Part shown: piece after piece, positions 1 to 41,992 of the stretch
How the letters are laid out: the number at the start of each line of letters is the position of its first letter
Position numbering within the stretch: the stretch's first letter is position 1
Source: Tubiluchus corallicola
Lineage: Eukaryota; Animalia; Priapulida
Assembly (NCBI GenBank): GCA_030141605.1
Contig: JAQGDQ010001384.1
Location: 1 to 43,423 of the forward strand
Reading direction: 5' to 3'
Length of the DNA stretch: 43,423 bases
The notes under the pieces: model-generated
The model's input: only the letters and a program-made list of their open reading frames with translations
The model's database searches: none
What the model was told of the DNA's origin: nothing
Position numbers and translations under genes: made by a program

Positions 1-98
1 CATTACAATAAAATCTGTTTACTTTATTAACATACTAACCATAAGTTTAGATATTTACAAAATTTTAGTCATAAACGTTAGAATTAGTCAGAATTAGT

Positions 99-703
99 GC
101 TGCATCAGAGAAAATTTGTAAAATAATCTAATGTAAATTTAGATCAGTTTGCAAAATCCAAATTGAAATGCAAAAAAACTAGTTCTTATTGGCTGTTCAC
201 ATTCAGTAAAGTGGACAGGTTTACAACTTTATACAACAGTTTTCTACAGGAATAGTTCTAAATGCAAAATGAGTCAGACAGCCTGAATGCACCATGACTA
301 TTTTGTGATGCCAGTGGTGCAGACCGCTAAGAGCTCATCTAATTAGGTAAATTATTTAAGAAATTATTAAAAATCTAAATTCTGTTCTAGGCCAAGTTGT
401 ATGAGACCGACTCATTATTAGCCTAACACAAAGACGCTCGTTATAAAAGCTTAATAGTTAAAACTGAAAGTTATCTCACAAGATGGCGTCTTATTGTAGA
501 AGGTATTATGATGTATCTGATGCTGATGTTTAGAGTTTACAAAACTTCTTCATAATCACTGGGAACATGAAAAAGATGATCTAGAAGCATTCATGGATGT
601 AAATTCGAGGGTTTTGATCCCTCAGAGGTGAAGTGAAAAGTTATATATCTGGGTAGGCAAGAAAATCAAGAAAACCCAGAAATCAGAGAAAACAAATTGC
701 ATT
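99..703 (+). repeat. ~605-bp direct duplication, copy 1 (partner 5636-6241)
   Basis: GCTGCATCAGAGAAAATTTGTA...CAAATTGCATT recurs nearly identically at 5636-6241, with only scattered substitutions and about one indel. Confidence 0.95.
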
Positions 704-820
704 CATGATCAGTCTGTTTCGTATGGGAGGATCACAGATCATGAAATTGACAGATGCAGGTGCATGTGGAATGGGGACTCAGGAAGAGCTGGGTCGGCCA
801 TTATTATGGCCCTGAAATCA
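426..820 (+). pseudogene. Endogenous viral element: decayed phenuivirus-like (Bunyavirales) nucleocapsid gene with segment 5' terminus
   Basis: ACACAAAGAC at 426-435 and ATG at 483. Stitched frames read MASYCRRYYDVSDADV*SLQNFF..DDLEAFMDV/FEGFDPSEVK*KVIYLG..IAFMISLFRMGGSQIMKL..GR/AIIMALKS. This resembles the Phlebovirus/Tenuivirus N pattern F-x-Y/F-Q/E-GFD..MI-x-L-xx-RG-xxxx-K..G-xx-I/V-xx-L. Several stops and frameshifts. Confidence 0.6.
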
Positions 821-1108
821 CTCTGGGCTCTATTCTAGGCCCTTTCTTTTTCTTGTCTATATAAACGACATTATTCATAATATACAATGACAGTCATGGT
901 CCTGATATCACTCTGGGCTCTATCCTAGGCCCTTTCTTTTTCTTGTCTATATAAACGACATTATTCATAATATACAATCACAGTCATGGTCCTGATATCA
1001 GTCTGGGCTCTATCCTAGGCCCTTTCTTTTTCTTTGTCTATATAAACGACATTATTCATAATATACAGTGACCGCCATGGTCCTGATATCACTCTGGGCT
1101 CTATCCTG
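806..1108 (+). repeat. ~90-bp tandem repeat (about 3.3 copies) containing a LINE reverse-transcriptase motif
   Basis: Units start at 806, 896, 986 and 1077. Each unit encodes GSILGPFLFLVYINDII, the QGSxLGP..YxND segment of CR1/L2-type RT. Confidence 0.9.
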
Positions 1109-1160: not shown

Positions 1161-1359
1161 CACAACCATTTTCCCGGATCAGGAAAAGAAACTTGCCAGA
1201 AGGACGGTTTCTGAAGAAACATCAAATTTCTAAGAGGCAAATACGGAACAGAAGATTTTAGCTTCGTACCTCTTACGTTTATCTTACCAGCCCAGAAGGG
1301 TGGCGTTCAAAAGATATTTGGAAGAGAATCCCAAAGAAAGACAATGGATTTATAAACCG
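1161..1359 (+). pseudogene. Orphan pseudo-exon of a tubulin-tyrosine-ligase-like (TTLL) gene
   Basis: Acceptor tttcag at 1155-1160 and donor gtattt at 1360. Reads HNHFPGSGKETCQKDGF*RNIKFLRGKYGTEDFSFVPLTFILPAQK/VAFKRYLEENPKERQWIYKP, matching TTLL motifs NHFPG, KD, F-x-P-x-TF-x-LP and WIxKP. One stop and a 1-nt insertion. Confidence 0.85.
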
Positions 1360-4340: not shown

Positions 4341-5635
4341 CACCCTCATTGGAGGAGAGATTTTGAGGTGGGGTTGGGGTCTTTCTCATTTACATGAAAA
4401 TTAAAACTTTCTCCCCATTCGTTCGTATAAAAACTAAAATTTTACCGCAATTGTAATCAGCCGCATTTCCCGGTAAAGAAATCTTCACGAATTTTTTCCT
4501 ATAAAAAGGCTGCACACTGATAATGCAATCGCTTACATGGTTACTTTGGAACGAGATACTTCTGAAAAGGGAGAATGAAATGTTTACATTTCTGTAAAGC
4601 GTTTGAAGCAGAATATTATGATGTTTTAAATAGTATGTAAAAGTATGTGGTGCATGGAACACGAATGGTTATTTTCTGCACATAAGAAAAGCAAAAAAAA
4701 AAAACATTGTAACCACTGAGTCTTAAAGAAAATGTGGTGTCTTTGCTGATCAGTTACATGGGCTATGACACTTACACTGAACATTTACTCGTTTTACTAT
4801 ACAATTTGCCAAAGATTGAAAACTGTCTGAAAAGCAACGTGAAAAGTTTACCAGTCAAATCTCTTTTGAAGAAATTGCAGTGTCACTGGATAAGAGTGAG
4901 TTTATGTATAACATTACGGTGGCTTCAATAGTAAAAGCATACATTCTAACACATTTGTTACATGCCACTTCTGATATCAGCATTACTATTTCCTCTTTCC
5001 AATCTGGCCTTCCCTGTTGGAGTCACTTGTCATGTTACAATCTTAAGCTGATGAGCCTACCTCTGTAAAACTGTTTTAAAAAAGAGATTACTTTTACTAA
5101 ACCATCGCAGATGATGTGACTTTGAATAAATGTAAAGAAAAGTTTTAAACATAAAGAAACACACACGTATATGGTCGTTAGCATTGCTTATATTTTTTAT
5201 ATTCGCATCAGTTTTTGCCAATTGCTCAGTGCAGCATGAAAATTGTTTAAAAATATAGGAGAATTTAAAACATTGATGAAGCTTTGTATGGTGAAAATAT
5301 GTTGTAGTTATCAAAACACTTTCTCATTGCTAATAAGATCTTTCAGATCAATGAGTCGTAATATTTACAGTCAGCTAACTATTGGCTATTCTGCAAATGT
5401 TTCTTTTTGCATTTTTGTTCAAATTGATTTTTTTTAAATATTGATTTACAGAAGTAGGCAAACTTGAAAAGCCAAGGCTCTTTGGTCTCCCTTAAGCCAT
5501 TCATCATATAGTAAGTCTGTGTGTTCCACAGATTCTTGCTACATTTGGCAGCATCTATCTAGAATTTAAAGGACTTCATGTGAGCAGACATCTTAAATGA
5601 TGTGTAAGACGATGCAATTAAAGTTTTGATTTAGA

Positions 5636-6241
5636 GCTGCATCAGAGAAAATTTGTAAAATAATCTAATGTAAATTTAGATCAGTTTGCAAAATCCAAAT
5701 TGAAATGCAAAAAAACTAGTTTTCATTGGCTGTTCACATTCAGTAAAGTAGACAGGTTTACAATTTTATACAATGGTTTTCTACAGGAATAGTTCTAAAT
5801 GCAAAATGAGTCAGACAGCCTGAATGCACCATGACTATTTTGTGATGCCAGTGGTGCAGACCGCTAAGAGCTCATCTAATTAGGTAAATTATTTAAGAAA
5901 TTATTAAAAATCTGAATTCTGTTCTAGGCCAAGTTGTATGAGACCGACTCATTATTAGACTGACACAAAGACGGTCATTATAAAAGCATAAATAGTTAAA
6001 ACTGAAAGTTATCTCACAAGATGGCGTCTTATTGTAGAAGGTATTATGATGTATCTGATGCTGATGTTTAGAGTTTACAAAACTTCTTCATAATCACTGG
6101 GAACATGGAAAAGATGATCTAGAAGCATTCATGGATGTAAATTCGAGGGTTTTGATCCCTCAGAGGTGAAGTGAAAAGTTATATATCTGGGTAGGCAAGA
6201 AAATCAAGAAGACCCAGAAATCAGAGAAGACAAATTGCATT
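5636..6241 (+). repeat. ~605-bp direct duplication, copy 2
   Basis: Near-identical to 99-703. It ends abruptly where the putative 5' end of the LINE begins (~6242). Confidence 0.95.
5963..6241 (+). pseudogene. Second, 3'-truncated copy of the phenuivirus-like nucleocapsid EVE
   Basis: ACACAAAGACGG at 5963, ATG at 6021, the same FEGFDP motif, and the same stop codons as copy 1. Confidence 0.55.
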
Positions 6242-6480
6242 ACGCATGCGTGTGCTGTAGTAAGTTGCTCAGAATTTTTCGTAGGAAAAAAATTTAGAAA
6301 AATGATTGATTCTTCGTTGATCAGTTAAATTTTTTTAAACTGGATATTTTTGTGACACATAATGATGCCTGCCGCTATGACGTCTGAGACGAAAATAAGC
6401 AAAACAAGACGTCGAAATCAGACGCAAATAGTTGTGAAGTGAGAGTCAACACCCGCAGTACATCCAAACAAGCATCAAAC

Positions 6481-7330
6481 ATGGCGGCTCCCGTAAGCTC
6501 AAACGTACAGTCAGAAGATAGAACTGGCGTCCAAGATAGAGGCGGATCTAACGAAGATTTTGAGGTAAAGTCCATGTTAATGGATATATCTGGAAAAATT
6601 GATGCCAAGTATGAGCAGATACTGAATTGTATTTTTGATTTAAAGACAGAAGTCAATGAGATTACGTCAAGCCAACGGTATATCTCAGATCGCTTTGACA
6701 GTTTTGAGAAATCCATGACAGATGTCTCTGCAAAATGTGAAAAACTTTGCTCCGAAAATGCTGCTCTAAAAAGTACAGTATGTTCTCTTCAAGAGGAAAT
6801 TAGAAAACTTCAGGAAAAGCAGGATGACCTTGAACAATATGAAAGGCGAGATTGTCAAATTTTTACTGGTGAACCTGTTACCATGGACGCTAATTTTTAC
6901 TGGTGAACCTGTTACCAGGGATGAAGATACATCCAATATTGTAGAGCGACTTGCTTATCATATGGGACTAAATGTGACATGCAAGGATATAAGTATTTCA
7001 CATCGTCTCAAAGCAAGGAATGATGGAAAGCCACCATCCATTATTGCAAAATTCATACGCAGATAAACAAGAGATGAACTGTATGCGAGGTGCAAGAATA
7101 AAATTACTGCAGACCAGTTAGGATTCTGACTGGTCTGCACCCACCTAATCTACATTAATGAAAGTCTTACGCCACAACGACGTGATCTGTATAGGAGTTG
7201 TTTGGACTTCAAGAAGGCGCACAACTATAAGTTCCTCTGGACTCGAAATGGCAGTATCTATCTACGTAAGGCGGAGTCTACTGGGGTCATCAATATCCGT
7301 TCGAAAAATGACTTGGATAAAGTAACGTAA
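6481..7330 (+). pseudogene. LINE ORF1 (coiled coil plus RRM-like/CTD), disrupted
   Basis: Heptad region, then LEQYERRDC, DISISHRL, IIAKFIRR, IYINESLTP and FLWTRNGSIYLRK. Frameshifted by a 34-bp tandem duplication at 6858-6916 and carries in-frame stops. Confidence 0.85.
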
Positions 7331-7388
7331 ATGCTGGTATGCTTTAATTTAAAGTATTATACCTGATATTGATGGCTACGAAAATTAA

Positions 7389-9875
7389 ATGGCTACTAGG
7401 CAGTATTATTGTACTTTTTGTGATAAACAAATTAAAAGTAATCAAGCTGCAATATTCTGTGACATCTGTCTAGTGTGGTGCCATCATAAGTGCACCACTC
7501 TAACACTTAATGACTTCTACACTTTAGGTCAAACAAATGAACCATTTTACTGTGTTACTTGCTTAAAAGCAGTCTTCCCATTTCAATATTTGGAAGACAC
7601 AGAGATTCACGAACCTTGTCAGCTTGATTTTGTACTTAATTCAATTTATAATTTACCTAATTTAACTGAACTTTCTACTTTAAGTTCTTTTTCAAACGAT
7701 GAGCTTGACCTCTATAATATCCTACCAACATATGACAGTCCGTACTTTAAGCTTGATACGCTTTGTAGCAGTACAGAACTGACTTCAACAAATGCTGATT
7801 TCAGTTTTGTGCATTTTAATACTAACAGCCTCCATAGGTACTTTACCAATATGTATGATGTTATTACACATTTCCAACAAAAACCACAAATCATAGCAAT
7901 CTCTGAAACAAGGATTACTCCGAATACCACATTTTTATGTAATAAACCTGGTTATACTTTTATACATCACACTCAAACACACATGCTGGGGGGGGGGGGG
8001 TGCCTATATATAAGCAATCTGTTGAAATAAAATTCCAACAAAAATATGCAAGTCGAAAATCTTTGGATTAACGTTGAATACAATCTAAAACAAAAAACAT
8101 TATTTTTGCTGTTATATATAGGCACCCCAACAATGATGTATTACCCTTTCACAAAGAGATGGAGCGTAAACTGGCATACATTAACAGATCAGCCGTGAAA
8201 TGTTACATATGTGGAGATATAAATATTAACTTGCTACAACACGAAGAAAAACAATACATTGCTGACTAGATTTCCATGCTATTTTCTAACTATTTTGTAC
8301 CAGTAATTACGCGTCCCACTAGACTCACTCAGTTCACAAAAACTCTTATCGATCATGTTTACACCAATGATATGAGTCAATATATTGTGCCTGGTATTAT
8401 TCTGTATGAAATTGCCAATCATTTGCCAATTTTTTGTATTGTCAAATCTTCACTGTTACACAAAAAGAAACTCACCTACTAAATACGTGACCAATGTAAA
8501 TTTAATAAAGATAAATTTATTGAAGACCTAAAAAATAAATTTATGAAAACTGATATAACTCAGCTCCCAACTCATGACTCTTTCTCTGTCTTTATGCACA
8601 CTTACAGTCATGTTCTTAATACTCATGCATCAATCAAAACTCTGTCACGTAGAGAAAAGTTAACATGGTCCAAACCTTGGATAACTCCTGCTATTTTAAT
8701 ATCTATTAAAACCAAAAGTAAATTATACAAAACACATAAATTATCCAATAGTTTATTTAAAAGAAATTATTATAAAATATATTCAAATAATTTGAATAGA
8801 ATTAAAGAGGCTTCTAAAAAAAGTACTATTCTCAAATAATTCAAAACAATAAAAATAATATGAAAAAAATGTGGTCTACTTTCAATGATATATGTAACAA
8901 GACTAAAAGCAACAGGAATAAAATAAATAAAGTTACAGTTAATGGCCTTGAAATAACTGACCAAGGTAGTATAGCAGAGACTTTTAATGAATATTTTGCT
9001 TCTATAGGTTCAAATATGAAAAATAAAATCCCACAAGTTTCAAATTCCTTCCAATCATATCTGGGGCTAGAAAATCCACACTCTCTTTTTCTTGACCCTG
9101 TTACAGCACCTGAAATTGAATTGTTAATTAATAGACTAAATGAACAGAAATCACCTGGATCTGAAAAAATACCAGTATATTACTACAAAATTGCGAAGGA
9201 ATTATTATGTCCTCTGTTAACTACATTATTCAATAAATCTATTTCCACCGGTATATTTCCAGATATTCTAAAAATAGCTAAGATTGTTCCAGTACACAAA
9301 AATGGCCCTGTTGTTAATATTTCAAATTACAGACCAATCTCCTTACTTTCTCCTGTTGCAAAGATATACGAAAAAATTTTATACATTCGCCTAGAGAATT
9401 TTTTAAACAAACATAATATATTAAACATCTACCAATGTTGCTTCAGAAAAAGCTATTCCACTTGTCCTTCTGTATCTGAATTGTGTGACAGAATTAATGA
9501 GGACTTAGATAAAAAAAAGCACATTTGTGATATTTTTCTGGATTTATTTAAGGCATTTGATACTGTCCAGCACAATATATTGACTCATAAGCTTGCTCAT
9601 TATGGTATTCGGGGTAATGCGCTGTCACTCTTCACGTCGTATTTAGAAAATCGGAAACACTTTACTGCAATTGATGATAATGAATCACAGAGAATAAATA
9701 TTACTTGTGGATTACCACAGGGATCAACGCTTGGTCCATTATATTATATGTTAACGATCTACATTTGACATCCAATTTTCATACCAGATCGTTTGCAGAT
9801 GACACAAACCTGTTTATGGCTAATCAAAATCTTAAAAATCTCGAACATAATGTTAATGCTGAAATTAAAAAAATG
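7389..9875 (+). pseudogene. LINE ORF2: PHD finger, AP endonuclease and reverse transcriptase, disrupted
   Basis: PHD C4HC3 (CTFC..CDIC..HHKC..CVTC). APE motifs HFNTNSL, ISET, GGG, YRHP, GDIN and IDH. RT motifs KSPG, NYRPISLL, FLDLFKAFDTV, PQGSTLGP, YVND and FADD. Multiple frameshifts. Confidence 0.92.
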
Positions 9876-9938
9876 ATGTTTGAATGAAGGCAAATCAGTT
9901 AAGTGTCAACTATATATAAATGTATATATATATATATA

Positions 9939-11211
<1,273 letters not shown>

Positions 11212-16299: not shown

Positions 16300-19200
16300 T
16301 ATCTGCTAACTGGAAAACTTGTAAGACAACGTCCAACATTAGAGTAATTTTTAATCGCTCTAATGTGCAAAACTTGAAGCTTTTGTAGCAGTGCAGGTTA
16401 GTAGGCCGGCTGTGTGATTGCTTGCATTGTGACTTAACAAGTGAGGTAGGAAATCTTGTCAATCATGCAAGAAAAGTCAAAATCCTGTCAGCCTGCGGGA
16501 AAATGGTGATATACTATGCGACCGTTGTGCAAGCCAGATAGAAAACTTCAGTATTACCTCTGCAATGTGGAGGAATCTAAATAAATGTCTTGACTCATTA
16601 AGTAAAGAAATAAAATCGATGAGGGCTGAACTAAAGGAACTAAAAGGTAATAATACTGATCTGTCAACTAATATTACGAAATTAAAAACTGAGGTTATAC
16701 AATTTAACGCTCAAACACTAAGCATGCAACCAGTCAAAGTCATAGATAAACTGAATGATACAATAAATGCTCTGGACAAGAAAATGAACAATCCCAAGCC
16801 AACATACAGTGCAATGGTAGGCCTAAGTACTGGTTCAGCAAACAACACAATGGTAAAGAACAATCATGTAGTCAGCACGAAAATGCCATGCGATCCTAAC
16901 CGCACTGTAATAATCGATAACGTTAAAGATCCACACATAGCTACTAACAGTGCCATTATAAAGAAAACTGTGTATGAACACTTCCCTCGCACTAAGTTTG
17001 ATTCAGCCTTTAGAACTGCGAAAGGCAAGATTCAAAAACAGCTTTGCGATACCGAGACAGCAGATACAATAATAAGTAACTGGAAACCTTACTATCTCGG
17101 GACAAACACTAACGCGAGATACCCAGTTAAACAACACCTGGGATTGTTAAGAGACTGTGACACTTCGCTAAGTGATGATGAATTACTGACCGATGTTAAA
17201 GACAGGAACTGAAATTGAAAGGTTTAAAAGGAAAAGTGGTAAAGTACTTCCTGTAGTAAAGGTTAAGTTTACATCGGGTTGAACGGCTTAAACCAAAATA
17301 ACTCACGATGAAATGTGAAAAATGTGACAGGTGTAAAAATCCAATCCAGTTGCTCCCTCTGCTTCAATAACTACCATTAAAATTGCACACGTATCTATAT
17401 CTCAGATTATAATACAGTAAAAAATACTTGTCATGTGTGTGTAATGACGAATTACTTGCTTAAAATCATTTAGATAATGATAAAGATTGTTTAATCGCGA
17501 TTAATAGAGACTCGTACTTTATTAATATTGAAAAACTCAATGAATTAGTATTTTCGCCTTTTGAAATGGAAGAATCTTTAAAACATAAACTAAGTGAGGT
17601 AGATGGTGACAGTAACTGTTAGAACAGTGCGTCATTAAACTGTCCTTACTATAATGACAATGCTCTTTCGGGTCTCAAAGTAAATAGTCCCTGCCACCTA
17701 TCACTGTTGCATTTAAATATAAGAAGTACTCAAGCCAATATAAACGAATTCTTATGTTACATGAAAAGCATTAATCGTGAATTTGGCTTTTCTGAGACTT
17801 GGTTAACAAATAAAGCTTCTATGCTTTACGAAATTCCAGGCTATAATCACGTTAGTCAAACTAGAAATACTGGGCAGCGTGGTGGTGGGGTATCTATTTA
17901 CATAAAGGACCACCTAGATTTTGATATTAGAAATGATTTAAATTGCAACGAGCCAATATGTCAGATAATGTTTGTCGAAATTAAATGTCCGATTATGGGT
18001 CGTAAAAATGTGCTAGTGGGCATTATACAACATTATATACAGGCTTCCTGGTTATGGTGTAAATATAGAAAATTTTAATGAAAAGCTAAACTGTATTTTA
18101 GAAGTAATAAGACGTGAGAATAAAAAGTGTTTCATTCTAGGAGACTTCAACTTAGATTTATTAAAATTTAATGAACATACTCCAACACGTGAATTTTTGG
18201 AACTTCCCTTTCATAAACAAACCAACTCGAACTACTAGCTCCACTGCAACTCTAATTGATAATATTATCACGAATGACTTTAGCTGTCTTAGTATAGTGC
18301 AAAGTAATAATGGGATCATATGTACGACTATCTCTGATCATTCTATATTGCAGATGTAGGCGGCAAACAAACAAAAGAAACTTACAGACGCGTTTTTAAT
18401 AAAGTAAAATAAAGATAAATTTAAAAAAATTGTTACAAAGTATTGCGCGGAACGATAGTTTAGACTCTAATAATTCCCAGACTGATTACACGTCATTTCA
18501 AGATAATTTGCTAAAATGTTATGAAGCGTGTTTTCCTCTAAAACCTTGTAAAACTCGTTATCTAGGCAAACCCTGGATTACTCCTGGTGTGTTAAGTAGC
18601 GTTAAAAGAAAAAATATTATGTAGAAAGAATACCTAAAATGTCCTTCTCAAAATTTATTGAAGGAATACAAGCAATATAAAAAGAAATTTACAAATTTAA
18701 TAAGCTTATCCGAACGAAAGTTTACCAAGCCAAAATTCAAGAAAACAAGGGCAACAAATCTAAATCATGGCAAGTGTTAAGACAGATCATTAATAAAAAT
18801 GAGCCTACAGGCAATAGCCAAATTTACTTCCTACATAATGGCTTTGAAATAAGTGACCCAAATGAGGTAGTGAATAAATTCAATAGTTTTTTTTTTTTTG
18901 TAAATGTTGGGCGCAATATTGCAAACTCTATTCCATATATCAATTTGAAAAAAGGTACTGTGATTTTTTAACAACCTCGCATGATCATTGAATCTATATT
19001 CATTGAGCCTGCTACTACCCATGAAGTGGTAAAGCTAATTATATCATTAAAATTTAATTTTAGTTCTAGCTATGACGGCGTAACTGCTGATGTTATAAAA
19101 TCCGTATGTAAGGAAATCACGGAACCACTTACCAACCTTTTTAATTTATCTTTTTTGACAGGTGTCGTACCTAAAGAACTAAAAATAGCTAAAGTAACAC

Positions 19201-19326
19201 CAGTTTATAAAAACTAAGAATGTGACCTATTTGTTAACTACCGACCACTTTCAGTTTTGCTAATACTGTCTAAGATCATTGAGAAGCTAATGTACAGACG
19301 CTTGATAAACTTCATAAATAAATCTG
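16300..19326 (+). mobile_element. Second, more decayed CR1/L2-group LINE (ORF1, APE, start of RT), 3'-truncated
   Basis: ORF1-like coiled coil with TYSAMV and RTVII (16565-17212). APE motifs LHLNIRS, FSETWL, RGGGVSIYI, GDFN and TLIDNII. Then KPWIT, KIAKVTPVYK, NYRPLS and LSKIIEK. The 5' boundary is approximate. Confidence 0.88.
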
Positions 19327-19910
19327 ATCCATACGCGACTGACTCAGCATTTAATACACCAGCATCCAGGCTTTTGTTGTTTTTCAATGACTTTGCCTCA
19401 TGCTTTACTTCTTCTTAAGGAAATGGAACTTTCATTGGATAGTGAGTCCTTTTAACCCCAACTGCATTATCATCATTAAAATTTCGTTGAAAAAATTCTG
19501 CAATGGCTTCAGTTTGCTGTTCAGCATCAGTAATTAGACCATCATTTCTTTCTACAATCATTTTTTTCTTTGGTTGAAAGGTCTGCACGTATTACTTCAA
19601 AATGCATAGAAGGATCATTTTTTGTTTGCTCAATTTCTTCTGCAATGCCAGTCACCTTTTTTCTTCTATTCGTTTTAGCTTTTCACGAATTTGCTTTGGA
19701 ATTTCTTTGCATTTCTTCTTAAGATCATCAATTTCTGCCAAATTTTTACATTGGTGAATTTTATCTTTCAAAACTTTCTGATTCGCAAACAAAGCTTTTA
19801 TCTCATCATCTTTTACCTTTTTATCGTCAAATCTCACATGTCCAAATATTTCTGCTGCCTAATTTTTTATATAATAGAATTGTTGTATAAAAGAGCAGAA
19901 TAATTGCTGA
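19325..19910 (-). mobile_element. Fragment of another non-LTR element (RTE-like tower/pre-RT region) joined to the broken end of the LINE
   Basis: The minus strand reads ..IAEEIEQTKND..GLITDAEQQTEAIAEFFQ..PFP*EEVKHEAKSLKNNKSLDAGVLNAESVAYG, matching the pre-RT EEV..A...LKNNKSxGxD...AE motif. Confidence 0.7.
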
Positions 19911-28000: not shown

Positions 28001-29005
28001 TCATGTACACTATACATGAAACAAAAAAGATGTAAAAGGTAGAAGGGGTTTGCTTCATCATTGCTCTGTACTTTCATGCTATTATTTTAATAATCCAAAG
28101 GTTACTGGTTCGAATACAGGCTAATACCCGACTTTTTTACTTTACAATTTTCTTTCAAGTTTAATTGAAGTTTAACTGAATGAAGTGTCACAATTAATGA
28201 GTGAAAAAGGTCATAAATAATTTACCGTCATGGTGTCCGAGGGTATAGATACTTTTTCCATTGATCTTACCATGCCTTGTTATTTTGTTACTGTGTTTTG
28301 ATTTCAATAAAATCGAAAGTTGACATTATTTGACCAGAGGGCTGTTGGTCTCAGCTGTAAAAACTGGCTCCATTATATCTGCTATGCATGAATACGAAGC
28401 ATTCATTTCAGGTTTCAGGCCCTAGAGAAAATGCACATGACCTATATTCATCCACTCACTAGGTGTCGACCCCACATAGCAATTTACGCAGAAACTGTGA
28501 CCCGAGTTCAACGTATTGAGCCAGTAGGATGAAGCCAATGGAACTCAGGGACGCCTGCCCGTCTGTGACCTTTGACATCTTTCATAGCTTGGGCCTGGGG
28601 CAATCTGGTCACATTCATAGCTAACCAAGCACCACGAGAGACAAAAATAAAAAAAGTATAAAAGGTCAAGATGCACATAATAAAAATTTGGGTAAATCAA
28701 GAAGATACTGCTTTGTAGCAATTTCTCAAAAAAAAAACAATTTGTAGAAAGTTTGTACATTATTTGTCATCGGCATTGGCAAATCTTCACCAGACTGTGC
28801 AGATTGAGACGGTGTAAATTTCAGTATCTTATTAATGGTCTTCACTCCAGCTAGTCGAAAAACAAAGTGGAAGAAAGCTTTAATTTTTCAGACTTTTAAC
28901 CTATTTGATTTAAACTCAAGTCACAATGACTGATCACTAAAAATTTAACGATTTGCAAAAATTGTAGGTCAAAACTTAGTTTCTCTGATTTTAAACTGGT
29001 TTCAG

Positions 29006-30490
29006 ATCGACAAGATAGACCAAGATGGTAACACAAAACTCCACAGAGCAGTAAAATCTAATGATTCCGAGGGAGTAAAACAGCTAATACAAGATCATGA
29101 TGATGACAATGTTAAAGATAGGAAGCTTGGATACACAGTGTTGATGTATGCAGTCAAGAAAGATAATGAACTCAATGTTAGTTTGCTACTAGAAGCAGGT
29201 GCAAATCCCAACTTGAGTGACGATGATGGTTGGACATCATTGGTGTATGCAGTCAGGATGGATAATGAACTCAATGTTAGTTTGCTACTAGAAGCAGGTA
29301 CAGATCCTAACTTGAGTGACAATCGTGGTTGGACAGCACTGCATTCTGCTGCTGTGATAAAACTAACTTTGGTATCAGAAGTGGTGACTTCATTTGTGGA
29401 ACATGGCATTGACATTAACAAACGAAACTTAAGTGGCAAGACTGCAGTGCACTTGTACATTAATAGTGCAACAAATAAAACCCTAAACAAAGAACTACGA
29501 GAGACTATTGGTTATCTGCTAATATCTCTGTATGTAAGAGCCAATAAAAAGACTGAGAACAATAGCCAGTTTACATTCAAAACGAAATGCAGGAATTTGT
29601 TGCTAAAGAAAGACTTGGATCGTAAATCTGTGAAAGAAGTACTGTGAAAGAAGCATAGGACGTCTTCCACCGACTAAAGAAAATGATGTTATCAGAACAA
29701 AAATTGAAGCCTTAGCTGCCAGAGTATGTACTAAATTGGGAGAAATAGATGAAAGGTTTGATTCTGTCTGCAAGCTCGTTGGCAGCAGTGTATGTGGAAT
29801 CAAAGCTGGGTTACCAGATGAGTTTGATTTTTTCATCATCTTGAAAAATTTATGCAAGTATCTTATTGTCGAAAAAACTGGCAAACCAGGATTTGCAAAA
29901 ATTGCATTGGGTGAGAAAGCGACAGAAATGTTTACAGAGTTTATTGAAAATGGCAGGTTTTCTTTTGACAACTTAAAGAGCCATTTTGTGATTCTTTTAT
30001 GCAGGGCTATGAGCGCAATTTTCAAGGAAGGCTCAGAAATAACGGAATCTTTTGATTTTGTTCGTGTGGTGTGGAATAAGGTTTGTACTTGCTTCCACCT
30101 GATGTACTATGGCGACTATTATGACCCACCACTACCTGTCTCATTAGACATGACAGCTGCTATAGAAGTACCAGGTGAACTGGCAGGGATGTTGACATCA
30201 CATGACACTTGCTATAGAAGTACCAGGTGAACCGGCAGGGATGTTGACATCACATGACACTGGCTCAGCTACTTCTTATCACCTTGTATTTAAGCCATGT
30301 CCTGATGCAGGGCAGAATTACTGTGCCGTATCTATGGCTGTGTATGAAAGTCAACTTGTTGGAAACATGAGTCAGCATAAGAAAGAAGGATAACTGTAGT
30401 TAAACAACTGAATAAATTTAAAATGACACAATTTTTCTGCGATCAGAAAGCTTTTATCCCTCTTCTCTATTGGGAATAAAGAAGTTCTTT
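29006..30490 (+). pseudogene. Ankyrin-repeat plus Mab-21/cGAS-like nucleotidyltransferase (ANK-cGLR), frameshifted and C-terminally truncated
   Basis: Acceptor tttcag ends at 29005. Five ANK repeats (GNTKLHRAV, GYTVLMYAV, GWTSLVYAV, GWTALHSAA, GKTAVHLYI). Then DERF..LVGSSVCGIKAGLPDEFDFFIIL, VSLDMTAAI and SMAVYESQL..KEG(Y). Frameshifts at ~29640, 30159-30262 (52-bp duplication) and ~30392. Confidence 0.88.
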
Positions 30491-31381: not shown

Positions 31382-31982
31382 TCAGCTTCCCTCTATCTGA
31401 ATCTGTTTTGCTTCTTCCTTGAAAACGTCTAACCCTTGTGTATGGAATGTGACAAGGTGAAAGTCGGAAACTCCTTCCTGGGGTTCGATTCCAAGTTCAT
31501 TCTTGATTCTTTCCTCGATTATTTGTCTTCCCGTTGAACCAACAGAAAAACTTTCGTCCATTATTAATGCAAAGTGTACGCTCTCATCAGATTTCTTCTC
31601 AACCACCATACTTCACCTGTGCCACACAATGATCAACAACCTTATTTGGATCTCGTCCATAGACACCTAAAAGCATGAAATGCTTATTCGGCTCTCGCAG
31701 TCTATTCAATGAACTACAGCTCATTGATAAATAACGGCCGTTTTGAATTTCCACCATTAAATGTGGATTTTCGTTTTCCATTATCATGTCATAGTTTTCA
31801 GCCATGACTTTGTACGGCATCGTGCCAATGATTATTCTGTCTCCACCATAGAGTTCTTTAGCTAAGAGCGGTGATGAAAGAATTTCAAGTTTTTGTTTCT
31901 CGTCTTCAACGTTTTGAATGGAGGATGGTGCAAATTGTTCAAGTATTTTATCTCTTTTTACACATTCTCTTATAAACACAGT
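31382..31982 (-). CDS. NAT16: NAT16/histidine N-acetyltransferase-like GNAT gene, last exon (1-nt frameshift at ~31605)
   Basis: Acceptor tttttcag (AG at 31984-31983), phase 0. RIIIGTMPYKVMAENYDMI and LLGVYGRDPNKVVDHC resemble the NAT16 C-terminal domain. The reading continues in the adjacent frame to TGA at 31382. Confidence 0.65.
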
Positions 31983-32768
31983 CTGAAAAATAACAGCAAG
32001 TTAATGGCAAAATCGTAATCCAAAGATCCTTGGTTCAGATCTGGACTCGATCACAACTTTTTTCACATTTCCGTTCAGACAAGTTTAGTTGCAATTTCGA
32101 TCATGATTGTTGATTCAATCAACCATTAACAAACTTCTTGAAATTAGAATTATCAAGAGTTAGTCAGACAATCATATCAAAACGATATGAACAAGTCACT
32201 TAGCATGTTTAGTTTATTTTATTGCTATCACTTAAGCTTAAAGAAATTATATAAAGAAACTTAAAGAAAAATATAACAAAGAAATTTACAAAAACAGTCT
32301 ATAAAGTATAAAGTTAATTTATATTAGCACTGCATAGAAAATTTCAGACGCGGTGGTGGCCCGCTATTTACTAGAAAATTATGACGTAAAGGTTGGCATC
32401 GTGGCTTTCCGTAAGCGCACTACTTAAACTAATTCAAATTTCTGCCGCTTTCTAACGCTCATCACAAGATTAGCTATCTATTTTTTGGAAAAACTTGTCA
32501 TACTTTTGAACGAAATTGACAGTGCGCTGCTTTTCTTCAACTGATAAACGATATTGGTGGAAGAATTGACATTCAAAATGGCAGCAGCCAAAATTGAAAT
32601 GATCGCGACTTTAAAGTGATTTTACTAATTACCCGAGGCGCTTCTCACACTTTTATTGCCAAATCCTTTCTAACATTTTTAAAAAATATTGAAATAAGCC
32701 TAACTTCCCAGAAAGCGTGTCCTTTCCTTTAACACGTACCCAATAACAGTATGTAGTATATACTTAAC

Positions 32769-32996
32769 CTTTTTAGCTATACAAGTAGCGTTTCTTCTAT
32801 AGTCTGGTTCAGGGCCCATACTTCCATTCATATACACGTGATCAGTTACACCCAAGCGCCATGAATCAAGCTGTTGTATTGTGTAAAGCTGAAGATTGGC
32901 ACTGATTCGCTTTTTCTGTAGTTCCGGTTTCACTCGACGGAAACGAGAGATGATTGTCTTTCCGGCATCCATTACGGTAACCATTTCAAAGCCAAC
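32769..32996 (-). CDS. NAT16: NAT16-like GNAT gene, middle exon (228 nt)
   Basis: AG and GT boundaries in phase 0. VGFEMVTVMDAGKTIISRFRRVKPELQKKRIS aligns with NAT16-type VIALESVxVIDxGETxLVEGLRVAPxERGKGVA. Confidence 0.75.
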
Positions 32997-33105
32997 CTGT
33001 AATTAATTACAAAGTGATGGCCAGGTATACGTTGACGTACGTATAACTTAAAAAGAAATCTCTGGATTTAATTAACATCACTAACATAAGTGCTTAGTTT
33101 CTACA

Positions 33106-34887
33106 TTACAAAGTTAAAAAGTTGAATTCATGCCTTACTTCGCAAAGTTAAAAAGTTGAATTCATGCCTTACTTCACAAAGTTAAAAAGTTGAATTCATG
33201 CCTTACTTTACAAAGTAAAAAAGTTAAATTCATGCCTTACTTTACAAAGTTAAAAAGTTGAATTCATGCCTTTCTTTACAAAGTTAAAAAGTTGAATTCA
33301 TGCCTTACTTTACAAAGTTAAAAAGTTGAATTCATGCCTTACTTCACAAAGTTAAAAAGTTGAATTCATGCCTTTCTTTACAAAGTTAAAAAGTTGAATT
33401 CATGCCTTTCTTTACAAAGTTAAAAAGTTGAATTCATGCCTTTCTTTACAAAGTTAAAAAGTTGAATTCATGCCTTACTTCACAAAGTTAAAAAGTTGAA
33501 TTCATGCCTTACTTCACAAAGTTAAAAAGTTGAATTCATGCCTTACTTTACAAAGTAAAAAAGTTAAATTCATGCCTTACTTTACAAAGTTAAAAAGTTG
33601 AATTCATGCCTTTCTTTACAAAGTAAAAAAGTTGAATTCATGCCTTACTTCACAAAGTTAAAAAGTTGAATTCATGCCTTACTTTACAAAGTAAAAAAGT
33701 TAAATTCATGCCTTACTTTACAAAGTTAAAAAGTTGAATTCATGCCTTTCTTTACAAAGTTAAAAAGTTGAATTCATGCCTTACTTTACAAAGTTAGAAA
33801 GTTGAATTCATGCCTTACTTTACAAAGTTGAATTCATGCCTTACTTTACAAAGTTAGAAAGTTGAATTCATGCCTTTCTTTACAAAGTTAGAAAGTTGAA
33901 TTCATGCCTTACTTTACAAAGTTAAAAAGTTGAATTCATGCCTTACTTTACAAAGTTAGAAAGTTGAATTCATGCCTTACTTTACAAAGTTGAATTCATG
34001 CCTTACTTTACAAAGTTAGAAAGTTGAATTCATGCCTTACTTTACAAAGTTAGAAAGTTGAATTCATGCCTTTCTTTACAAAGTTAAAAAGTTGAATTCA
34101 TGCCTTTCTTTACAAAGTTAAAAAGTTGAATTCATGCCTTACTTTACAAAGTTAAAAAGTTGAATTCATGCCTTACTTTACAAAGTTAAAAAGTTGAATT
34201 CATGCCTTACTTTACAAAGTTAAAAAGTTGAATTCATGCCTTACTTTACAAAGTTAAAAAGTTGAATTCATGCCTTACTTTACAAAGTTAAAAAGTTGAA
34301 TTCATGCCTTACTTTACAAAGTTAAAAAGTTGAATTCATGCCTTACTTTACAAAGTTAAAAAGTTGAATTCATGCCTTACTTTACAAAGTTAGAAAGTTG
34401 AATTCATGCCTTACTTTACAAAGTTAAAAAGTTGAATTCATGCCTTACTTTACAAAGTTAAAAAGTTGAATTCATGCCTTACTTTACAAAGTTAAAAAGT
34501 TGAATTCATGCCTTACTTTACAAAGTTAAAAAGTTGAATTCATGCCTTACTTTACAAAGTTAAAAAGTTGAATTCATGCCTTACTTTACAAAGTTAAAAA
34601 GTTGAATTCATGCCTTACTTTACAAAGTTAGAAAGTTGAATTCATGCCTTACTTTACAAAGTTAGAAAGTTGAATTCATGCCTTACTTTACAAAGTTAAA
34701 AAGTTGAATTCATGCCTTACTTTACAAAGTTAAAAAGTTGAATTCATGCCTTACTTTACAAAGTTAGAAAGTTGAATTCATGCCTTACTTTACAAAGTTA
34801 AAAAGTTGAATTCATGCCTTTCTTTACAAAGTTAAAAAGCTGAATTCATGCCTTACTTTACAAAGTTAAAAAGTTAAAATCATGCCT
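33106..34887. repeat. 34-bp tandem satellite, about 52 copies, inside the intron of the GNAT gene
   Basis: Unit CAAAGTTAAAAAGTTGAATTCATGCCTTACTTTA; period verified 33109 to 33143. Confidence 0.98.
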
Positions 34888-35448
34888 GTTTTAAGTGACT
34901 GTAATAAAAATGTAATAAAATATTAATTTTTTCGTTCCAGCTTGGTACACGGCGAAAGAAATCCAGTACTCAATGGTAGGATCTATTTGATGTAGATGTC
35001 TGAGATGAGGCCTAATTTGGTGTCATTGGCAAAAATATTTTTAAGATCGAAACACTAAACCACCAGAGGTGCATCAGCTATGCTTGGATATATATATGTG
35101 TCCTCAGTCAACAATGCAAACAATGAAATTGCGATGAGTCAGATATCAAAACAATCAACCATCTAGTTACTCTCCAGGCTCTACATTTCAGTTGATAAGT
35201 GCATCAAGTGACCATATTCCTCTTATTCTTGTCCCATGTGTAAATCTCAACTTGATTTCATTAAATTTGTCGAGATTTTATTTTATTTTATCATTTAGTT
35301 AAGGATACCTTTCTTTTAGTGTCATTAGGAAATAACTACTTCCAGATTAAGGCTATTGACCACAGTTTGCACAATTAGTTGAATCATTTCATACTTATGT
35401 ATAGTAACATAGCAACATGGTAATCATGTTGAATTTGAATTTACGCAC

Positions 35449-35661
35449 CGTTTCCCCTTTCAGTTCTGCTATGGCTCCTAAATTGTAGGAACGTGACAAG
35501 AAAAATTCGAACGTTTTGCGACAAGATATCGGGTCGCGTTGGCTGTAAAGTTCCGTATTGATTTGGTGAACATTTTCGTAATCGTCCGGTGTTGCCTTCC
35601 TGCATGTAACACAAGGCGTATGAAACAATGTAACTGAGCAATCGAACCTTAAAAACCACAT
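35449..35661 (-). CDS. NAT16: NAT16-like GNAT gene, first coding exon (start codon uncertain)
   Basis: VTCRKATPDDYENVHQINTELYSQRD..AIAELKGET followed by donor GTGCGT. Typical GNAT beta1-alpha1 start (R-x-AT-xx-D-Y), and it joins the next exon in frame. Confidence 0.7.
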
Positions 35662-36231
35662 TGTTCTCCATTGCTTATAAGAACGAGCATCCGTGGTTCC
35701 ACTAATTTTATCATCTTAATGACATTATTATTAATGATGATACAAACCAACAATTAATAATATTTTGAAATCAAAACTGAAAGGCAGGAAACGTGAAAAA
35801 CTTGTAATACAGCCTAGATTTTAACAAGGAACCTACTTACAAGAAGTATGTCTTAGATCATTAGGCCAGAGTGATCAAAGCAGTCCCATCCCTGATAACT
35901 GGGTAGCTAATTTCAGCATTTCCAATGTTAGATGACTGGCACTAGTGCACTTCTAACTAATTAGATTATTTTTTGTTTCTATTCCAGCCATTTTAGCGAC
36001 TTATTAATAAAAGAAAGTTTATCCACGTACCATGACAAGCCTTCTATTACTATACAAAGTACAAAACAGTTCAATTCCTTTAACTTTATTTTCAAACACT
36101 TATCTGTTTGTTACTGCATGACTTTTTTTCTTCAGGTCTGCTGAATCTTTACCTATTTGGCTCCTGTTAACTACTTAATTAGTGCATAATAGACTCTGCC
36201 TATATAAACTGGTTGTATGTTTGTAAATTTC

Positions 36232-36270: not shown

Positions 36271-37102
36271 CATTATTTTAACTTTTAATTTTTAATAAAA
36301 AGTTTTTCATTTTTTATTTATCTTGAGCTTAAAATTTTCGTGGGCTGCATTGATCGCTGGAGAATATAGTGGCCTTGTAGCTTAAGGCGTCTGTCTTGTA
36401 AGTAGAAGGCCCCCAATGTGTTTCAGTTTTTTGCATTTGTTGTCTTTCACGTTTGGCATCAAAATTTAATGATGGTACAGAGATTGTGCATTCATTGGTG
36501 TTTCGATATCAACAATCTGTTTATTTTAGACTGCAACTGTGTGAAAAAAGCCACCACTTGTTTGTCGTTTACCAGGCAGAAAAGTAGTTGAAAGAACGGC
36601 AAGTACTTACCGAAAAGAAATCATTGCTCAAAAAATCATGGCCGCCACACAGTTCACAAATATGTACGAACAAAAACTACATTGGTCTATTCTTGCGCGT
36701 CTATACGTATTTATCTACCGAGGTATCTGAATAAAGTAAACAAAGCACACAATAAATTTAAAAAATTCTTGTCAGAAAGACGTACAAGTACAGTGGCCAA
36801 AGGTAAAAGTAATCCGAAGTAAATAAACAGTAACGCCCCCTGAAAGGTGACTATGGCATTTACACATAATAGCTTGGCACAGGACTAATTCTGGTAAAAC
36901 GTACTGGAAATGTATCACCATTAAGTCAAATTAACTATATAAAAATGTGCTGGTCTCGAAAACATCCGTCACATTCAGATAACCAAGCACCACTTTGACC
37001 AAAACAATAATTTGCACTGAGGCGACGAGTTATTTTGTGAATAGAAAGGGTGTTTTTAATAGTAGAGCTTGCATATACATGCCAGGATAGCTGAAAAATC
37101 AG

Positions 37103-38514
37103 CAGCAGCTTCTATAGATGCACGACAACTTGACAATCCTTGCATCATTCGTAAGCTACCATAACTCAGCAGCTTCCTCAGATGCACGAAGACTTGACAA
37201 TCCTTGCATCATTCGTAAGCTACCATAACTCAGCAGCTTCCATAGATGCACGACGACTTGACAATCCTTGCATCATTCGTAAGCTACCATGACTCAGCAG
37301 CTTCCATAGATGCACGACGACTTGACAATCCTTGCATCATTCGTCAGCTACCATAACTCAGCAGCTTCCTCAGATGCACGACGACTTGACAATCCTTGCA
37401 TCATTCGTAAGCTACCATGACTCAGCAGCTTCCTCAGATGCACGACGACTTGACAATCCTTGCATCATTCGTAAGCTACCATAACTCAGCAGCTTCCTCA
37501 GATGCACGACGACTTGACAATCCTTGCATCATTCGTAAGCTACCATGACTCAGCAGCTTCCTCAGATGCGCGACGACTTGACAATCCTTGCATCATTCGT
37601 AAGCTACCATAACTCAGCAGCTTCCATAGATGCACGACGACTTGACAATCCTTGCATCATTCGTAAGCTACCATGACTCAGCAGCTTCCTCAGATGCGCG
37701 ACGACTTGACAATCCTTGCATCATTCGTAAGCTACCATAACTCAGCAGCTTCCTCAGATGCACGACGACTTGACAATCCTTGCATCATTCGTAAGCTACC
37801 ATGACTCAGCAGCTTCCTCAGATGCGCGACGACTTGACAATCCTTGCATCATTCGTAAGCTACCATAACTCAGCAGCTTCCATAGATGCACGACGACTTG
37901 ACAATCCTTGCATCATTCGTAAGCTACCATGACTCAGCAGCTTCCTCAGATGCGCGACGACTTGACAATGCTTACATCATTCCTAAGCTACCATGACTCA
38001 GCAGCTTCCTCAGATGCACGACAACTTGACAATCCTTGCATCATTCGTAAGCTACCATGACTCAGCAGCTTCCATAGATGCACGACGACTTGACAATGCT
38101 TACATCATTCCTAAGCTACCATGACTCAGCAGCTTCCATAGATGCACGACGACTTGACAATCCTTGCATCATTCGTAAGCTACCATAACTCAGCAGCTTC
38201 CATAGATGCACGACGACTTGACAATCCTTGCATCATTCGTAAGCTACCATAACTCAGCAGCTTCCAAGATGCACGACGACTTGACAATCTTACATCATTC
38301 CTAAGCTACCATGACTCAGCAGCTTCCACAGATGCACGACGACTTGACAATCCTTGCATCATTCGTAAGCTACCATGACTCAGCAGCTGCCTCAGATGCA
38401 CGACGACTTGACAATCCTTGCATCATTCGTAAGCTACCATAACTCAGCAGCTTCCTCAGATGCACGACGACTTGACAATCCTTGCATCATTCGTAAGGTA
38501 CCATGACTCAGCAG
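37103..38514. repeat. 64-bp tandem satellite, about 22 copies
   Basis: Unit CAGCAGCTTCCTCAGATGCACGACGACTTGACAATCCTTGCATCATTCGTAAGCTACCATRACT; period verified 37141, 37205, 37269. Confidence 0.98.
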
Positions 38515-39300
38515 TTTTAATCTTGTACAAAAATCAAACAGTTTAAGCTGTTTTAATAATAATGCTACTTTTCTAGAGCCATGCACTTGGCAATTGCAAA
38601 TTTACAATTCAGTGAAGAACTAAGCAAACTTTACGTAAGTAGTTGATGGGTTCCTGACAGGGTACGTGACATCTGGGCACGAGACGTTTGGGGACGAGAC
38701 ATTTGGGCACCAATATTAAAGTTGCAGGCCTATTTTTTACTATCTATGTAATTCCTAACCCTCACAATATTTTTAAGAACCATCGCTTCGATCACTAAAT
38801 TAGACGTATGCAGTAAAATATCGTATAGCAATTAAAAGCAGATAATTGAATTTCTGTTTTTCCACCTTAATTCGGTATTTTATGTACAACTTTTAAAATA
38901 AACGAAGTAGAAAAAGTCGTCGGACGGTTTACATTAACATTTTACTAAGAGATTTTTATTTCAAAAATATGTTACGCGTCACAAAAACAGTAAATAACAG
39001 AACTGAGTCACAAAATCTAAACAAATACCAAAATTTATCATCAGTGAAACTAGTGCAGCAATTTAATTAGTATTATAATTATCACAGTATTCATTGAAGG
39101 CTCGGTAAGCTTTAGAAGAAACCGACCTAGAATGTTTAGTTCATTACGTGCTTATAGCTAGCTGCGAACTCGAAACGATTAACTAAATTAATTAGTAAGT
39201 CAATTAAATGATGTGTGTTTATCAAAATTAAAATCAGTAATAATGACAAGCATTTTTATTGCATCACTTGCAAAAAACAGCGGATAATAATATTATATAA

Positions 39301-39790: not shown

Positions 39791-40844
39791 AAGTAGAAAA
39801 AGCCCTAAGCGTTTTCAAGATTTTAGCACTTTAATAGCTACTAGTTTTATGTGAAGGTCGTTCATGGCAATAATAAAATCATAAATCTTGTCAATTGAAA
39901 TTACGGAAAGGTGGATTCTATATTATTATGATGTGTCTAGTACCTGTTGAGAAAAGGTTACTGGCCAAATTATCATCTCAAGGTAAATCTCCTTCTGTTA
40001 TGCTTGCGTTGATATATTACTGTTTTTTGAAAAACTGAAACGGCGACGACAAAGACGATGACGACGACGACGATGATGATGATGTTACAAATTATTCTAG
40101 ATTTATAATTAATGCCGGTGGAATTTATTTTTTGATTGATTTTAAAATATTTTAATCCTTTTTATTCAAATTCTAAAAAAATGTGGTCCCACGTGATTAA
40201 TTTTACATGACAAGGTTTGATGGTGGTAGAAACTCCATTAACTCACTTTCAATTTAGCTAACTGTTACCTCAAAATAATTAGTCAGTCAGTCAACCAGAA
40301 TGTCAGTCAAAGAGTCTGCCTTCTGCACAGCGAGTTAATCAATCACACACTCACTTAAGCTGTTAAGCGGTCAGTCACTTGCCAGTTAGTCAGTCAGCCA
40401 GTTAGTCAGTTTATGGGTTATACCGTTAGTCAGAGAGGGAGAGAGAGGGAGAGAGAGGAGAGAGAGAGAGAGAGAGAGAGACAGGAGAGAGAGAGAGAGG
40501 TAGGTGTAAGGCAAACCTTGAGCTGTCGGTTCGGACAAGAACCTCTTAGACTCAAATTATGATTCTGAGCACGTGCATTATCCATTATCTGAATTTTCTG
40601 CTTGAAGAGATTGTAGCAAAATATTTATGACCTTTTCAATAGAGAAGCCTTGAAGTAAAATAGAAATGGAACTTTTACTACTTTACTTTATTACTAAGAA
40701 TTCCCTGAAATTTTGTTCCCACTTTTTTCTATGTTTTGTCTCCTGTCATTTATAAACGAAATTGTGACAAATGAGAGCTCAACTCCTTGGGTGGTGAATA
40801 ATTTGTTTATCAATTTTGAATAATCCAACAAAACCATTTTATCA
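39791..40844 (-). repeat. Repeat family B, inverted copy of 9939-11211
   Basis: Reverse-complement match including the (GA)n and (GAC/GAT)n tracts. Confidence 0.9.
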
Positions 40845-40866
40845 TTTTTCTATATATTTATATACA

Positions 40867-41500: not shown

Positions 41501-41992
41501 ATCACACTAACATCACATTTACATCACACATACATTACAGGTATTATTTGTATTCGTTCATGCAATTTTGACACCCCATCCTTCTCAGACAGCTCACACA
41601 AACTCTTTCACTAATAAAACTAATTCCAAAATTATTATGTTTTTTATAAAGTAAATTTGCAGGCTAGTTGCCGGAGGCTGAACAATTGTCTGTTTTCGTT
41701 TTCTCCCTATAGGCCTAAACCCAACTCCATTCTGACTTTATTATGAATGATATAAAAAGACAGACCACAAAGTTTAAAACCGTTTCAAAACTACTAAAAA
41801 CGTTTGATTGCAAATTTTACGTAAAACAGAGTACATAAATTTGGTTTCTCTCGCGACCCATTTCTGACAAAAATCAAGAATTATTTTTTTAACCACATTG
41901 TTGGCTAACTTCTTGTATCCTTGACCTCATTCGTTTTAAGTCCAAAGTCTAAATGTAACTCTAAATTACGATTAAATTCTAAATGGAATTTA

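What the first reader, a model, noticed from the sequence alone, without database searches (positions are those of the whole stretch)
426..820. Phenuivirus-like endogenous viral element that preserves the exact segment terminus
Seen: ACACAAAGAC (ACACAAAGACGG in copy 2) lies 57 nt before an ATG that opens a decayed frame containing FEGFDP, IAFMISLFRMGGSQIMKL and GR/AIIMALKS. Known: 5'-ACACAAAG is the conserved segment terminus of Phenuiviridae (Phlebovirus, Tenuivirus), and their N proteins carry F-x-Y-Q/E-GFD followed by MIxLxxxRG. Inferred: a fossil cDNA of the 5' end of an N-encoding RNA from an unknown bunya-like virus. Two independent signals (terminus and protein motif) agree, and the element is invisible in the ORF track.
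Basis: partly seen in the sequence, partly recalled or inferred. Interest (0 to 1): 0.85.

Follow-up and report, generated by a model that had tools for sequence, protein, structure and literature searches.

The report
Fossil bunya-like virus segment end
An animal chromosome carries two copies of a short broken stretch that starts with the exact ten-letter end of a group of RNA viruses and then weakly resembles their RNA-coating protein gene, so it is likely a dead fossil of an unknown bunya-like virus, a known kind of relic that probably lies here in a new host group.

Summary
Mostly confirmed, with corrections. ACACAAAGAC (426) is the published wenrivirus/uukuvirus terminal decamer; an ATG follows at 57 nt and FEGFDP at 604. 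The motifs lie in three frames, and 'MALKS' is the start of a host 90-bp tandem repeat. The two copies are one duplication with 335 nt of host flank, not two integrations. Standard searches find nothing (Pfam, PDB, 1.84 billion proteins), and an unanchored frameshift-aware profile score is chance level (28 of 60 shuffled windows reach it). Anchored tests do support it: decamer plus motif is expected about 1e-6 times per window, and the sequence after the motif matches nucleocapsid (N) proteins better than shuffles (3 of 1000; 0 of 150). A related contig in public runs shares the flank and leaves it exactly where the decamer starts, like an empty site; another carries the decamer followed by different sequence, which is unexplained. 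Verdict: likely (about 0.8) a dead fossil of the 5' end of an N-coding strand of a phenuivirid-like virus; family membership not shown. Such fossils are known in ticks and crustaceans. The scan noted another negative-strand-virus fossil in this genome, not this one.

The parts
426..435 (+). Terminal decamer ACACAAAGAC, copy 1
   Evidence: Sequence; same decamer as wenrivirus and uukuvirus segment ends (PMC8652140, passages); present in 8 of 31 S segments held
436..482 (+). Likely viral 5' untranslated region
   Evidence: Terminus to ATG 57 nt; 27-72 nt in 31 S segments. Inferred from position only
483..603 (+). Possible N-terminal arm of N, broken (stop 531-533, at least one frame break)
   Evidence: Position only; no similarity signal, 205 of 1000 shuffles reach the score
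604..621 (+). FEGFDP, the most conserved N motif
   Evidence: The motif class occurs only here and in copy 2 in six frames of the window; hhalign P 3.5e-4 to profile columns 26-50
622..764 (+). N-like block after the motif (stop 634-636, a frame break before 696, IAFMISL block 696-749)
   Evidence: Anchored tests 3 of 1000 and 0 of 150 shuffles; hhalign P 0.022 to columns 53-85
765..805 (+). Unassigned tail up to the repeat; latest possible end of the viral piece
   Evidence: Best anchored alignments stop by about 764
806..1107 (+). Host tandem repeat, 3.3 units of 90 bp, bounding the element; source of 'MALKS'
   Evidence: contigs with many different flanks in public runs
91..425 (+). Host upstream flank, duplicated with the element, with splice-like sites at 249/250, 346/347 and 390/391
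   Evidence: further paralogous contigs; no Pfam, Rfam or PDB match
1161..1358 (+). Decayed exon of a tubulin-tyrosine-ligase-like (TTLL) gene just downstream
   Evidence: PDB TTLL6 E 8e-5; Pfam TTL E 0.015; acceptor- and donor-like ends
5628..6241 (+). Copy 2: flank 5628-5962, decamer 5963-5972, FEGFDP 6142, ends at 6241
   Evidence: 596 of 614 identical to 91-703; the 6241 junction is also in contigs of runs X1 and X4
6388..9768 (+). Decayed LINE-like retrotransposon directly after copy 2
   Evidence: Coiled-coil ORF, Baculo_FP_2nd E 6e-13, PHD E 7e-4, RVT_1 E 3e-20

Best explanation
The stretch 426 to about 805 is likely a dead DNA fossil of the first 340-380 bases of the nucleocapsid-coding strand of an unknown phenuivirid-like RNA virus, likely copied by a host retroelement reverse transcriptase up to the very first base of the viral RNA and joined there to host DNA. 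Shown: decamer, ATG, motif order and spacing, breaks, duplication with flank, presence in two independent studies. Inferred: a germline infection; a leaderless antigenome rather than a cap-snatched mRNA as template, because no foreign 10-20-nt leader sits between host flank and decamer; insertion one or two bases into what reads as a splice donor upstream of a TTLL-like exon; later loss of the 3' part at the 90-bp repeat; segmental duplication; truncation of copy 2 at a LINE. It most likely does nothing today.
For: Decamer equals the published wenri/uukuvirus terminus. Decamer plus [YF][QE]G[FLY]D[PA] within about 100 nt is expected 9.6e-7 times per window (order-2 Markov). Of 75 IMG/VR loci scored with octamer plus motif, 38 were true N genes and 37 chance; only 1 of the 37 had both decamer and full motif, with no downstream signal. 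After the motif, copy 1 beats 997 of 1000 shuffles and 35 of 37 chance loci; mean over 22 N proteins beats 150 of 150 shuffles, best single protein 148 of 150. The two hhalign hits are adjacent and in order. Terminus-to-ATG 57 nt (27-72) and motif-to-conserved-G 41.7 codons (34-41) fit. One X3 contig shares flank 357-416, then six letters that match copy 2's last six flank letters at five, then departs with no decamer, reading like a splice donor. No well-supported indel inside 483-840 in X1, X3, X4, so the breaks are not assembly errors.
Against: No Tenui_N hit in any frame; 0 hits among 1.84 billion representatives, PDB and the word search. Unanchored frameshift-aware profile score 20.8 bits, reached by 28 of 60 shuffled windows; a LINE fragment at 18646-18747 scores higher, 27.1. 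Held-out intact N fragments score 46-77 bits, 10 of 10. N-terminal arm shows nothing. The family's invariant R before G is not kept. The motif class and anchors were chosen after seeing the sequence. One X1 contig has the same flank and decamer followed by other sequence, which a host origin of the decamer would also explain. No poly(A), no clear target-site duplication, no 3' terminus in the window.
Confidence: 0.7

Rival explanations
1. The N-like piece is viral, but the decamer is host sequence that happened to match the viral end and served as microhomology for the join, so the X1 contig would be the true empty site.
For: X1 record 2 shares the flank and the decamer, then differs. Microhomology joins are established for DNA repair.
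Against: X3 record 22 shares the flank but lacks the decamer and departs at its first base. Only 30 letters of each loose end were shown.
Confidence: 0.13
2. Nothing viral: AT-rich intronic DNA with a chance decamer and chance peptide motifs picked from three frames.
For: All unanchored searches are negative or chance level; score far below intact members; 2 of 37 chance loci beat the downstream score; the scan reads some 250,000 windows.
Confidence: 0.13
3. The fossil is viral and is kept as a template for antiviral small RNAs.
For: Duplicated and present in two studies; such a role is discussed for insect fossils (PMC6620529, abstract start and two passages only).
Against: Element and flank differ between copies at similar rates, 7 of 279 and 11 of 335, as for neutral DNA; it rides in a larger duplication.
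Confidence: 0.04

Closest known systems
Phlebovirus nucleoprotein fossils in Ixodes scapularis (PMC2987831, passages read)
   Same: DNA copies of phenuivirid N in an animal genome; 9 phlebovirus-like elements listed, tree built on NP.
   Different: Those were found by protein similarity and read as mRNA-derived; this one is below search thresholds and keeps the exact terminus with no leader. The passages I saw did not discuss termini.
Crustacean bunyavirus-like fossils in Daphnia, Armadillidium and copepods (PMC4573495, PMC4231630, passages read)
   Same: Broken bunyaviral pieces, some N; no target-site duplication; some copies made by duplication after insertion, as here.
   Different: Arthropod hosts; those papers report no microhomology or transposition signature; no terminus-exact junction in the passages seen.
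Wenrivirus S segment (Wenzhou shrimp virus 1, Mourilyan virus; L094, P0030, P0031; PMC8652140)
   Same: Marine invertebrate virus; first 11 bases match; N among the five best pairwise matches.
   Different: Not clearly the nearest: a metagenome N (L086), a phlebovirus N (P0024) and L134 score alike, so no genus can be named.
Leishbuviridae (PMC10496375, passages read)
   Same: Same terminal octamer ACACAAAG.
   Different: Trypanosomatid viruses; I held no named leishbuvirus N and could not test it.

Membership tests
Phenuiviridae S segment | Terminal ACACAAAG(AC) | tested here: met
   shared with Leishbuviridae, so not diagnostic alone
Phenuiviridae S segment | N start a short way after the terminus, same sense | tested here: inconclusive
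   ATG at 57 nt within the 27-72 range, but the arm shows no similarity
Phenuiviridae S segment | N matches Pfam Tenui_N (PF05733) at threshold | tested here: not met
   No hit in six frames; own profile 20.8 bits against 46-77 for intact fragments
Phenuiviridae S segment | GFD motif followed by the MI..L..RG block at family spacing | tested here: met
   across a frame break, and the invariant R is not kept
Phenuiviridae S segment | Complementary 3' terminus | tested here: not met
   No minus-strand match of the octamer in the window; the element is a fragment
Phenuiviridae | Polymerase groups within the family | not testable with these tools
   No viral Pfam family other than a LINE ORF1 domain among 104 window ORFs of 62 aa or more outside simple repeats; no genome held
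Non-retroviral endogenous viral element | Embedded in host DNA and inherited | tested here: met
   Host flanks, LINEs, TTLL-like exon; contigs bridge the 425/426 junction in runs of two studies
LINE retrocopy (target-primed reverse transcription) | Poly(A) tail and target-site duplication | tested here: inconclusive
   None seen by eye, but the 3' end is replaced by the tandem repeat

The most novel reading that the evidence does not exclude
One host site captured bunyavirus RNA ends more than once: two paralogous loci carry the viral terminal decamer joined at the same base beside a splice donor but followed by different sequence, which would mean a site-directed or terminus-guided capture of different segments, in a host phylum (possibly Priapulida) with no bunyavirus on record in my searches.
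Probability: 0.12. Interest if true: 0.8.

Novelty: new member of a known kind. Interest (0 to 1): 0.42.

Why it matters
If right, it records a phenuivirid-like virus in the germline of what appears to be a non-arthropod invertebrate, and shows that non-coding segment ends can reveal fossils that protein searches miss. A junction at base 1 with no snatched leader would point to the antigenome as template, against the usual mRNA reading (PMC2987831). The piece is short, dead and cannot be placed in a genus, which limits its weight.

Tried and rejected
No whole genome is held, so further copies, L/M fossils and a 3' end could not be sought outside the window. Pfam on single frames: only MPK1_gelsolin_C E 0.002-0.003, below cut-off, rejected. 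PDB: nothing but ASF1B at E 1.3. Representative search 0 hits; word search 0 candidates. The ESM Atlas was not searched, so look-alikes by language-model features are open. A phlebovirus-heavy profile put copy 2 first (24.4 bits) but only just above unrelated peaks at 22.6 and 22.5. The 27.1-bit peak at 18646-18747 was checked as a possible C-terminal N piece and rejected: it lies in a decayed LINE-like frame. Flank as an RNA gene: no Rfam match of note. Flank as TTLL exons: no support from PDB; the idea rests on recall and splice-like sites. An 8-base match between 413-420 and 799-806 as target-site duplication: not adopted, it does not abut the junction. Sequencing runs: no RNA holder listed; run X5, same species label, did not cover the element, which proves nothing. 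Contig depths hint at several copies but are not copy numbers. Low-depth single-base indels in X1 and X2 contigs at 570, 619 and 642 were not interpreted. Literature: 8 searches; 'Priapulus' with 'bunya' gave 0 papers; none of the listings showed a terminus-exact bunyaviral fossil, but the library lacks most subscription papers and I read passages only, no supplements.

Full report
Setting. The window is AT-rich animal DNA with simple repeats, satellites and decayed LINE-like elements. No genome is held. An earlier unchecked note calls the host probably a priapulid worm; I did not test this.

Observation. ACACAAAGAC lies at 426 and 5963, with an ATG 57 nt after the first. FEGFDP (604), the IAFMISL block (696-749) and AIIMALKS lie in three different frames, with stops at 531-533 and 634-636. 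MALKS is the first 15 nt of a 90-bp tandem repeat at 806-1107. Copy 2 belongs to a 614-nt duplication that includes 335 nt of flank, 596 of 614 identical, and ends at 6241 just before a LINE-like element; the rest of the element does not reappear in the window. The octamer alone is chance level (3 seen, 3.28 expected); the decamer is expected 0.22 times.

Standard searches fail. No Tenui_N hit in six frames, nothing in PDB, 0 hits among 1.84 billion representatives, no candidate in the word search.

Reference set. A motif scan of IMG/VR gave 38 loci, all encoding N; alignments of them brought in more distant N proteins, Wenzhou shrimp virus 1 and unnamed metagenome proteins among them. From 152 sequences I kept 22 for a balanced profile.

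Unanchored test, negative. A frameshift-aware local alignment gives copy 1 20.8 bits; 28 of 60 block-shuffled windows reach that, and a LINE fragment scores 27.1. Pairwise local P values reach 4e-5 to 9e-4 for 6 of 24 proteins on a 500-nt region chosen beforehand, which does not survive correction to the whole window. Intact 55-codon fragments of 10 of 10 held-out N proteins score 46-77 bits, so the piece is either heavily decayed, from a more distant lineage, or not N.

Anchored tests, positive. In 31 S segments that begin with the octamer the ATG lies 27-72 nt in, and the conserved G lies 34-41 residues after the motif; the window gives 57 nt and 41.7 codons. The motif itself sits later than in those 31 (about residue 41 against 29-34), though other N proteins held have it at 42-45. 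Decamer plus motif class within about 100 nt is expected 9.6e-7 times per window, and the class occurs only in the two copies. Three scans for octamer plus motif returned 78 loci; 75 were scored (two dropped for short flanks, one for an N): 38 true N genes at 147-198 bits and 37 chance loci at 7.6 or less, only 1 of which had decamer and full motif. Leaving the motif out, the DNA after it scores 6.2 bits, reached by 3 of 1000 shuffles and 2 of 37 chance loci; the DNA before it shows nothing (205 of 1000). Against single proteins the mean over 22 is reached by 0 of 150 shuffles and the best by 2 of 150. hhalign places the two frames on adjacent profile stretches in order, P 3.5e-4 and 0.022, though with low probabilities of 37% and 2%. 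The motif class was chosen after seeing the sequence, so these numbers overstate somewhat; I judge that they still favour a viral origin.

Junction. Four runs from two studies hold the stretch. Their contigs bridge 425/426 and show no well-supported indel within 483-840, so the breaks are real. Two lower-depth contigs from sample S1 share flank 357-416 at 7 and 8 differences in 60 and then leave it. The X3 contig continues for six letters like the end of copy 2's flank and then departs with no decamer, reading like a splice donor: its boundary falls on the decamer's first base, as an empty site would. The X1 contig carries the decamer at the same place and then different sequence. One old insertion followed by duplication and a rearrangement behind the decamer explains both; so would two captures, or a host decamer used as microhomology. 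The flank has splice-like sites, and a decayed TTLL-like exon follows at 1161-1358, so the element probably sits at the start of an intron of a dead TTLL-like copy; the link of the upstream exons to TTLL is untested (negative).

Mechanism. Shown: anatomy, breaks, duplication, inheritance. Inferred: reverse transcription by a host retroelement enzyme (established route for such fossils; LINEs abound here) running to base 1 of the N-coding strand. Phenuivirid mRNAs carry a snatched host leader (own knowledge); none is seen between flank and decamer, so the antigenome is the likelier template. The 3' part is lost. Element and flank have drifted alike between copies (7 of 279, 11 of 335), as neutral DNA would. 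If there was one insertion, it predates the roughly 12% flank divergence of the X1 paralog; 60 bases make that rough.

Known relatives. The decamer is that of wenriviruses and uukuviruses (PMC8652140, passages); the octamer is shared with Leishbuviridae (PMC10496375, passages). Phlebovirus NP fossils are known in Ixodes (PMC2987831, passages) and bunyaviral fossils, some duplicated after insertion, in crustaceans (PMC4573495, PMC4231630, passages). A flavivirid fossil is known in Priapulus (PMC9752770, passages); 'Priapulus' with 'bunya' found no paper. PMC6620529 was seen as two passages only. No supplements were read; sequence tables there could hold terminus-bearing fossils.

Verdict. It works like a non-retroviral endogenous viral element and is likely of phenuivirid-like origin (best reading 0.7 plus the microhomology and immunity variants, about 0.87 in all; chance 0.13). 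I do not file it in Phenuiviridae, since the Pfam test was not met and no polymerase is at hand. New member of a known kind; interest 0.42, carried by the terminus-exact junction, the unexplained second paralog and a probably new host group.

Noticed in passing
window 28949-30230 (+): Intronless-looking ankyrin-repeat ORF (Ank_2 E 5e-42) overlapping a Mab-21 nucleotidyltransferase-like ORF (E 4e-4) in another frame; could be one broken or frameshifted cGAS-like receptor gene.
   Followed up: no
window 31599-32000 (-): Histidine N-acetyltransferase C-terminal domain (Hisat_C E 1e-5); neighbouring minus-strand ORFs at 32700-33002 and 35395-35715 may be further exons.
   Followed up: no
window 1161-1358 (+): Decayed TTLL-like exon with a stop and a frame break; paralogous contigs about 86% identical in runs X1, X3, X5.
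   Followed up: partly
window 806-1107: 90-bp tandem repeat, 3.3 units, whose unit occurs with many different flanks in public runs; a dispersed repeat family.
   Followed up: partly
window 9920-11192 and 39807-40863: About 1.2 kb inverted repeat pair 29 kb apart, 86-96% complementary in pieces, containing a CT microsatellite.
   Followed up: no
window 32936-35100, 36975-38616, 41986-42900: Satellite arrays with 34-, 64- and 11-bp periods.
   Followed up: no
window 16445-19330 (+): Second decayed LINE-like element; gave the spurious top profile peak at 18646-18747.
   Followed up: partly
window 294-357: Contigs in X1 and X3 skip 62 nt of the flank; the X1 one is the paralog that also carries the decamer.
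   Followed up: partly
L090:74-1315 and P0052: Unnamed metagenome N-like proteins of 414 and 390 aa, much longer than typical phenuivirid N of about 245 aa.
   Followed up: no
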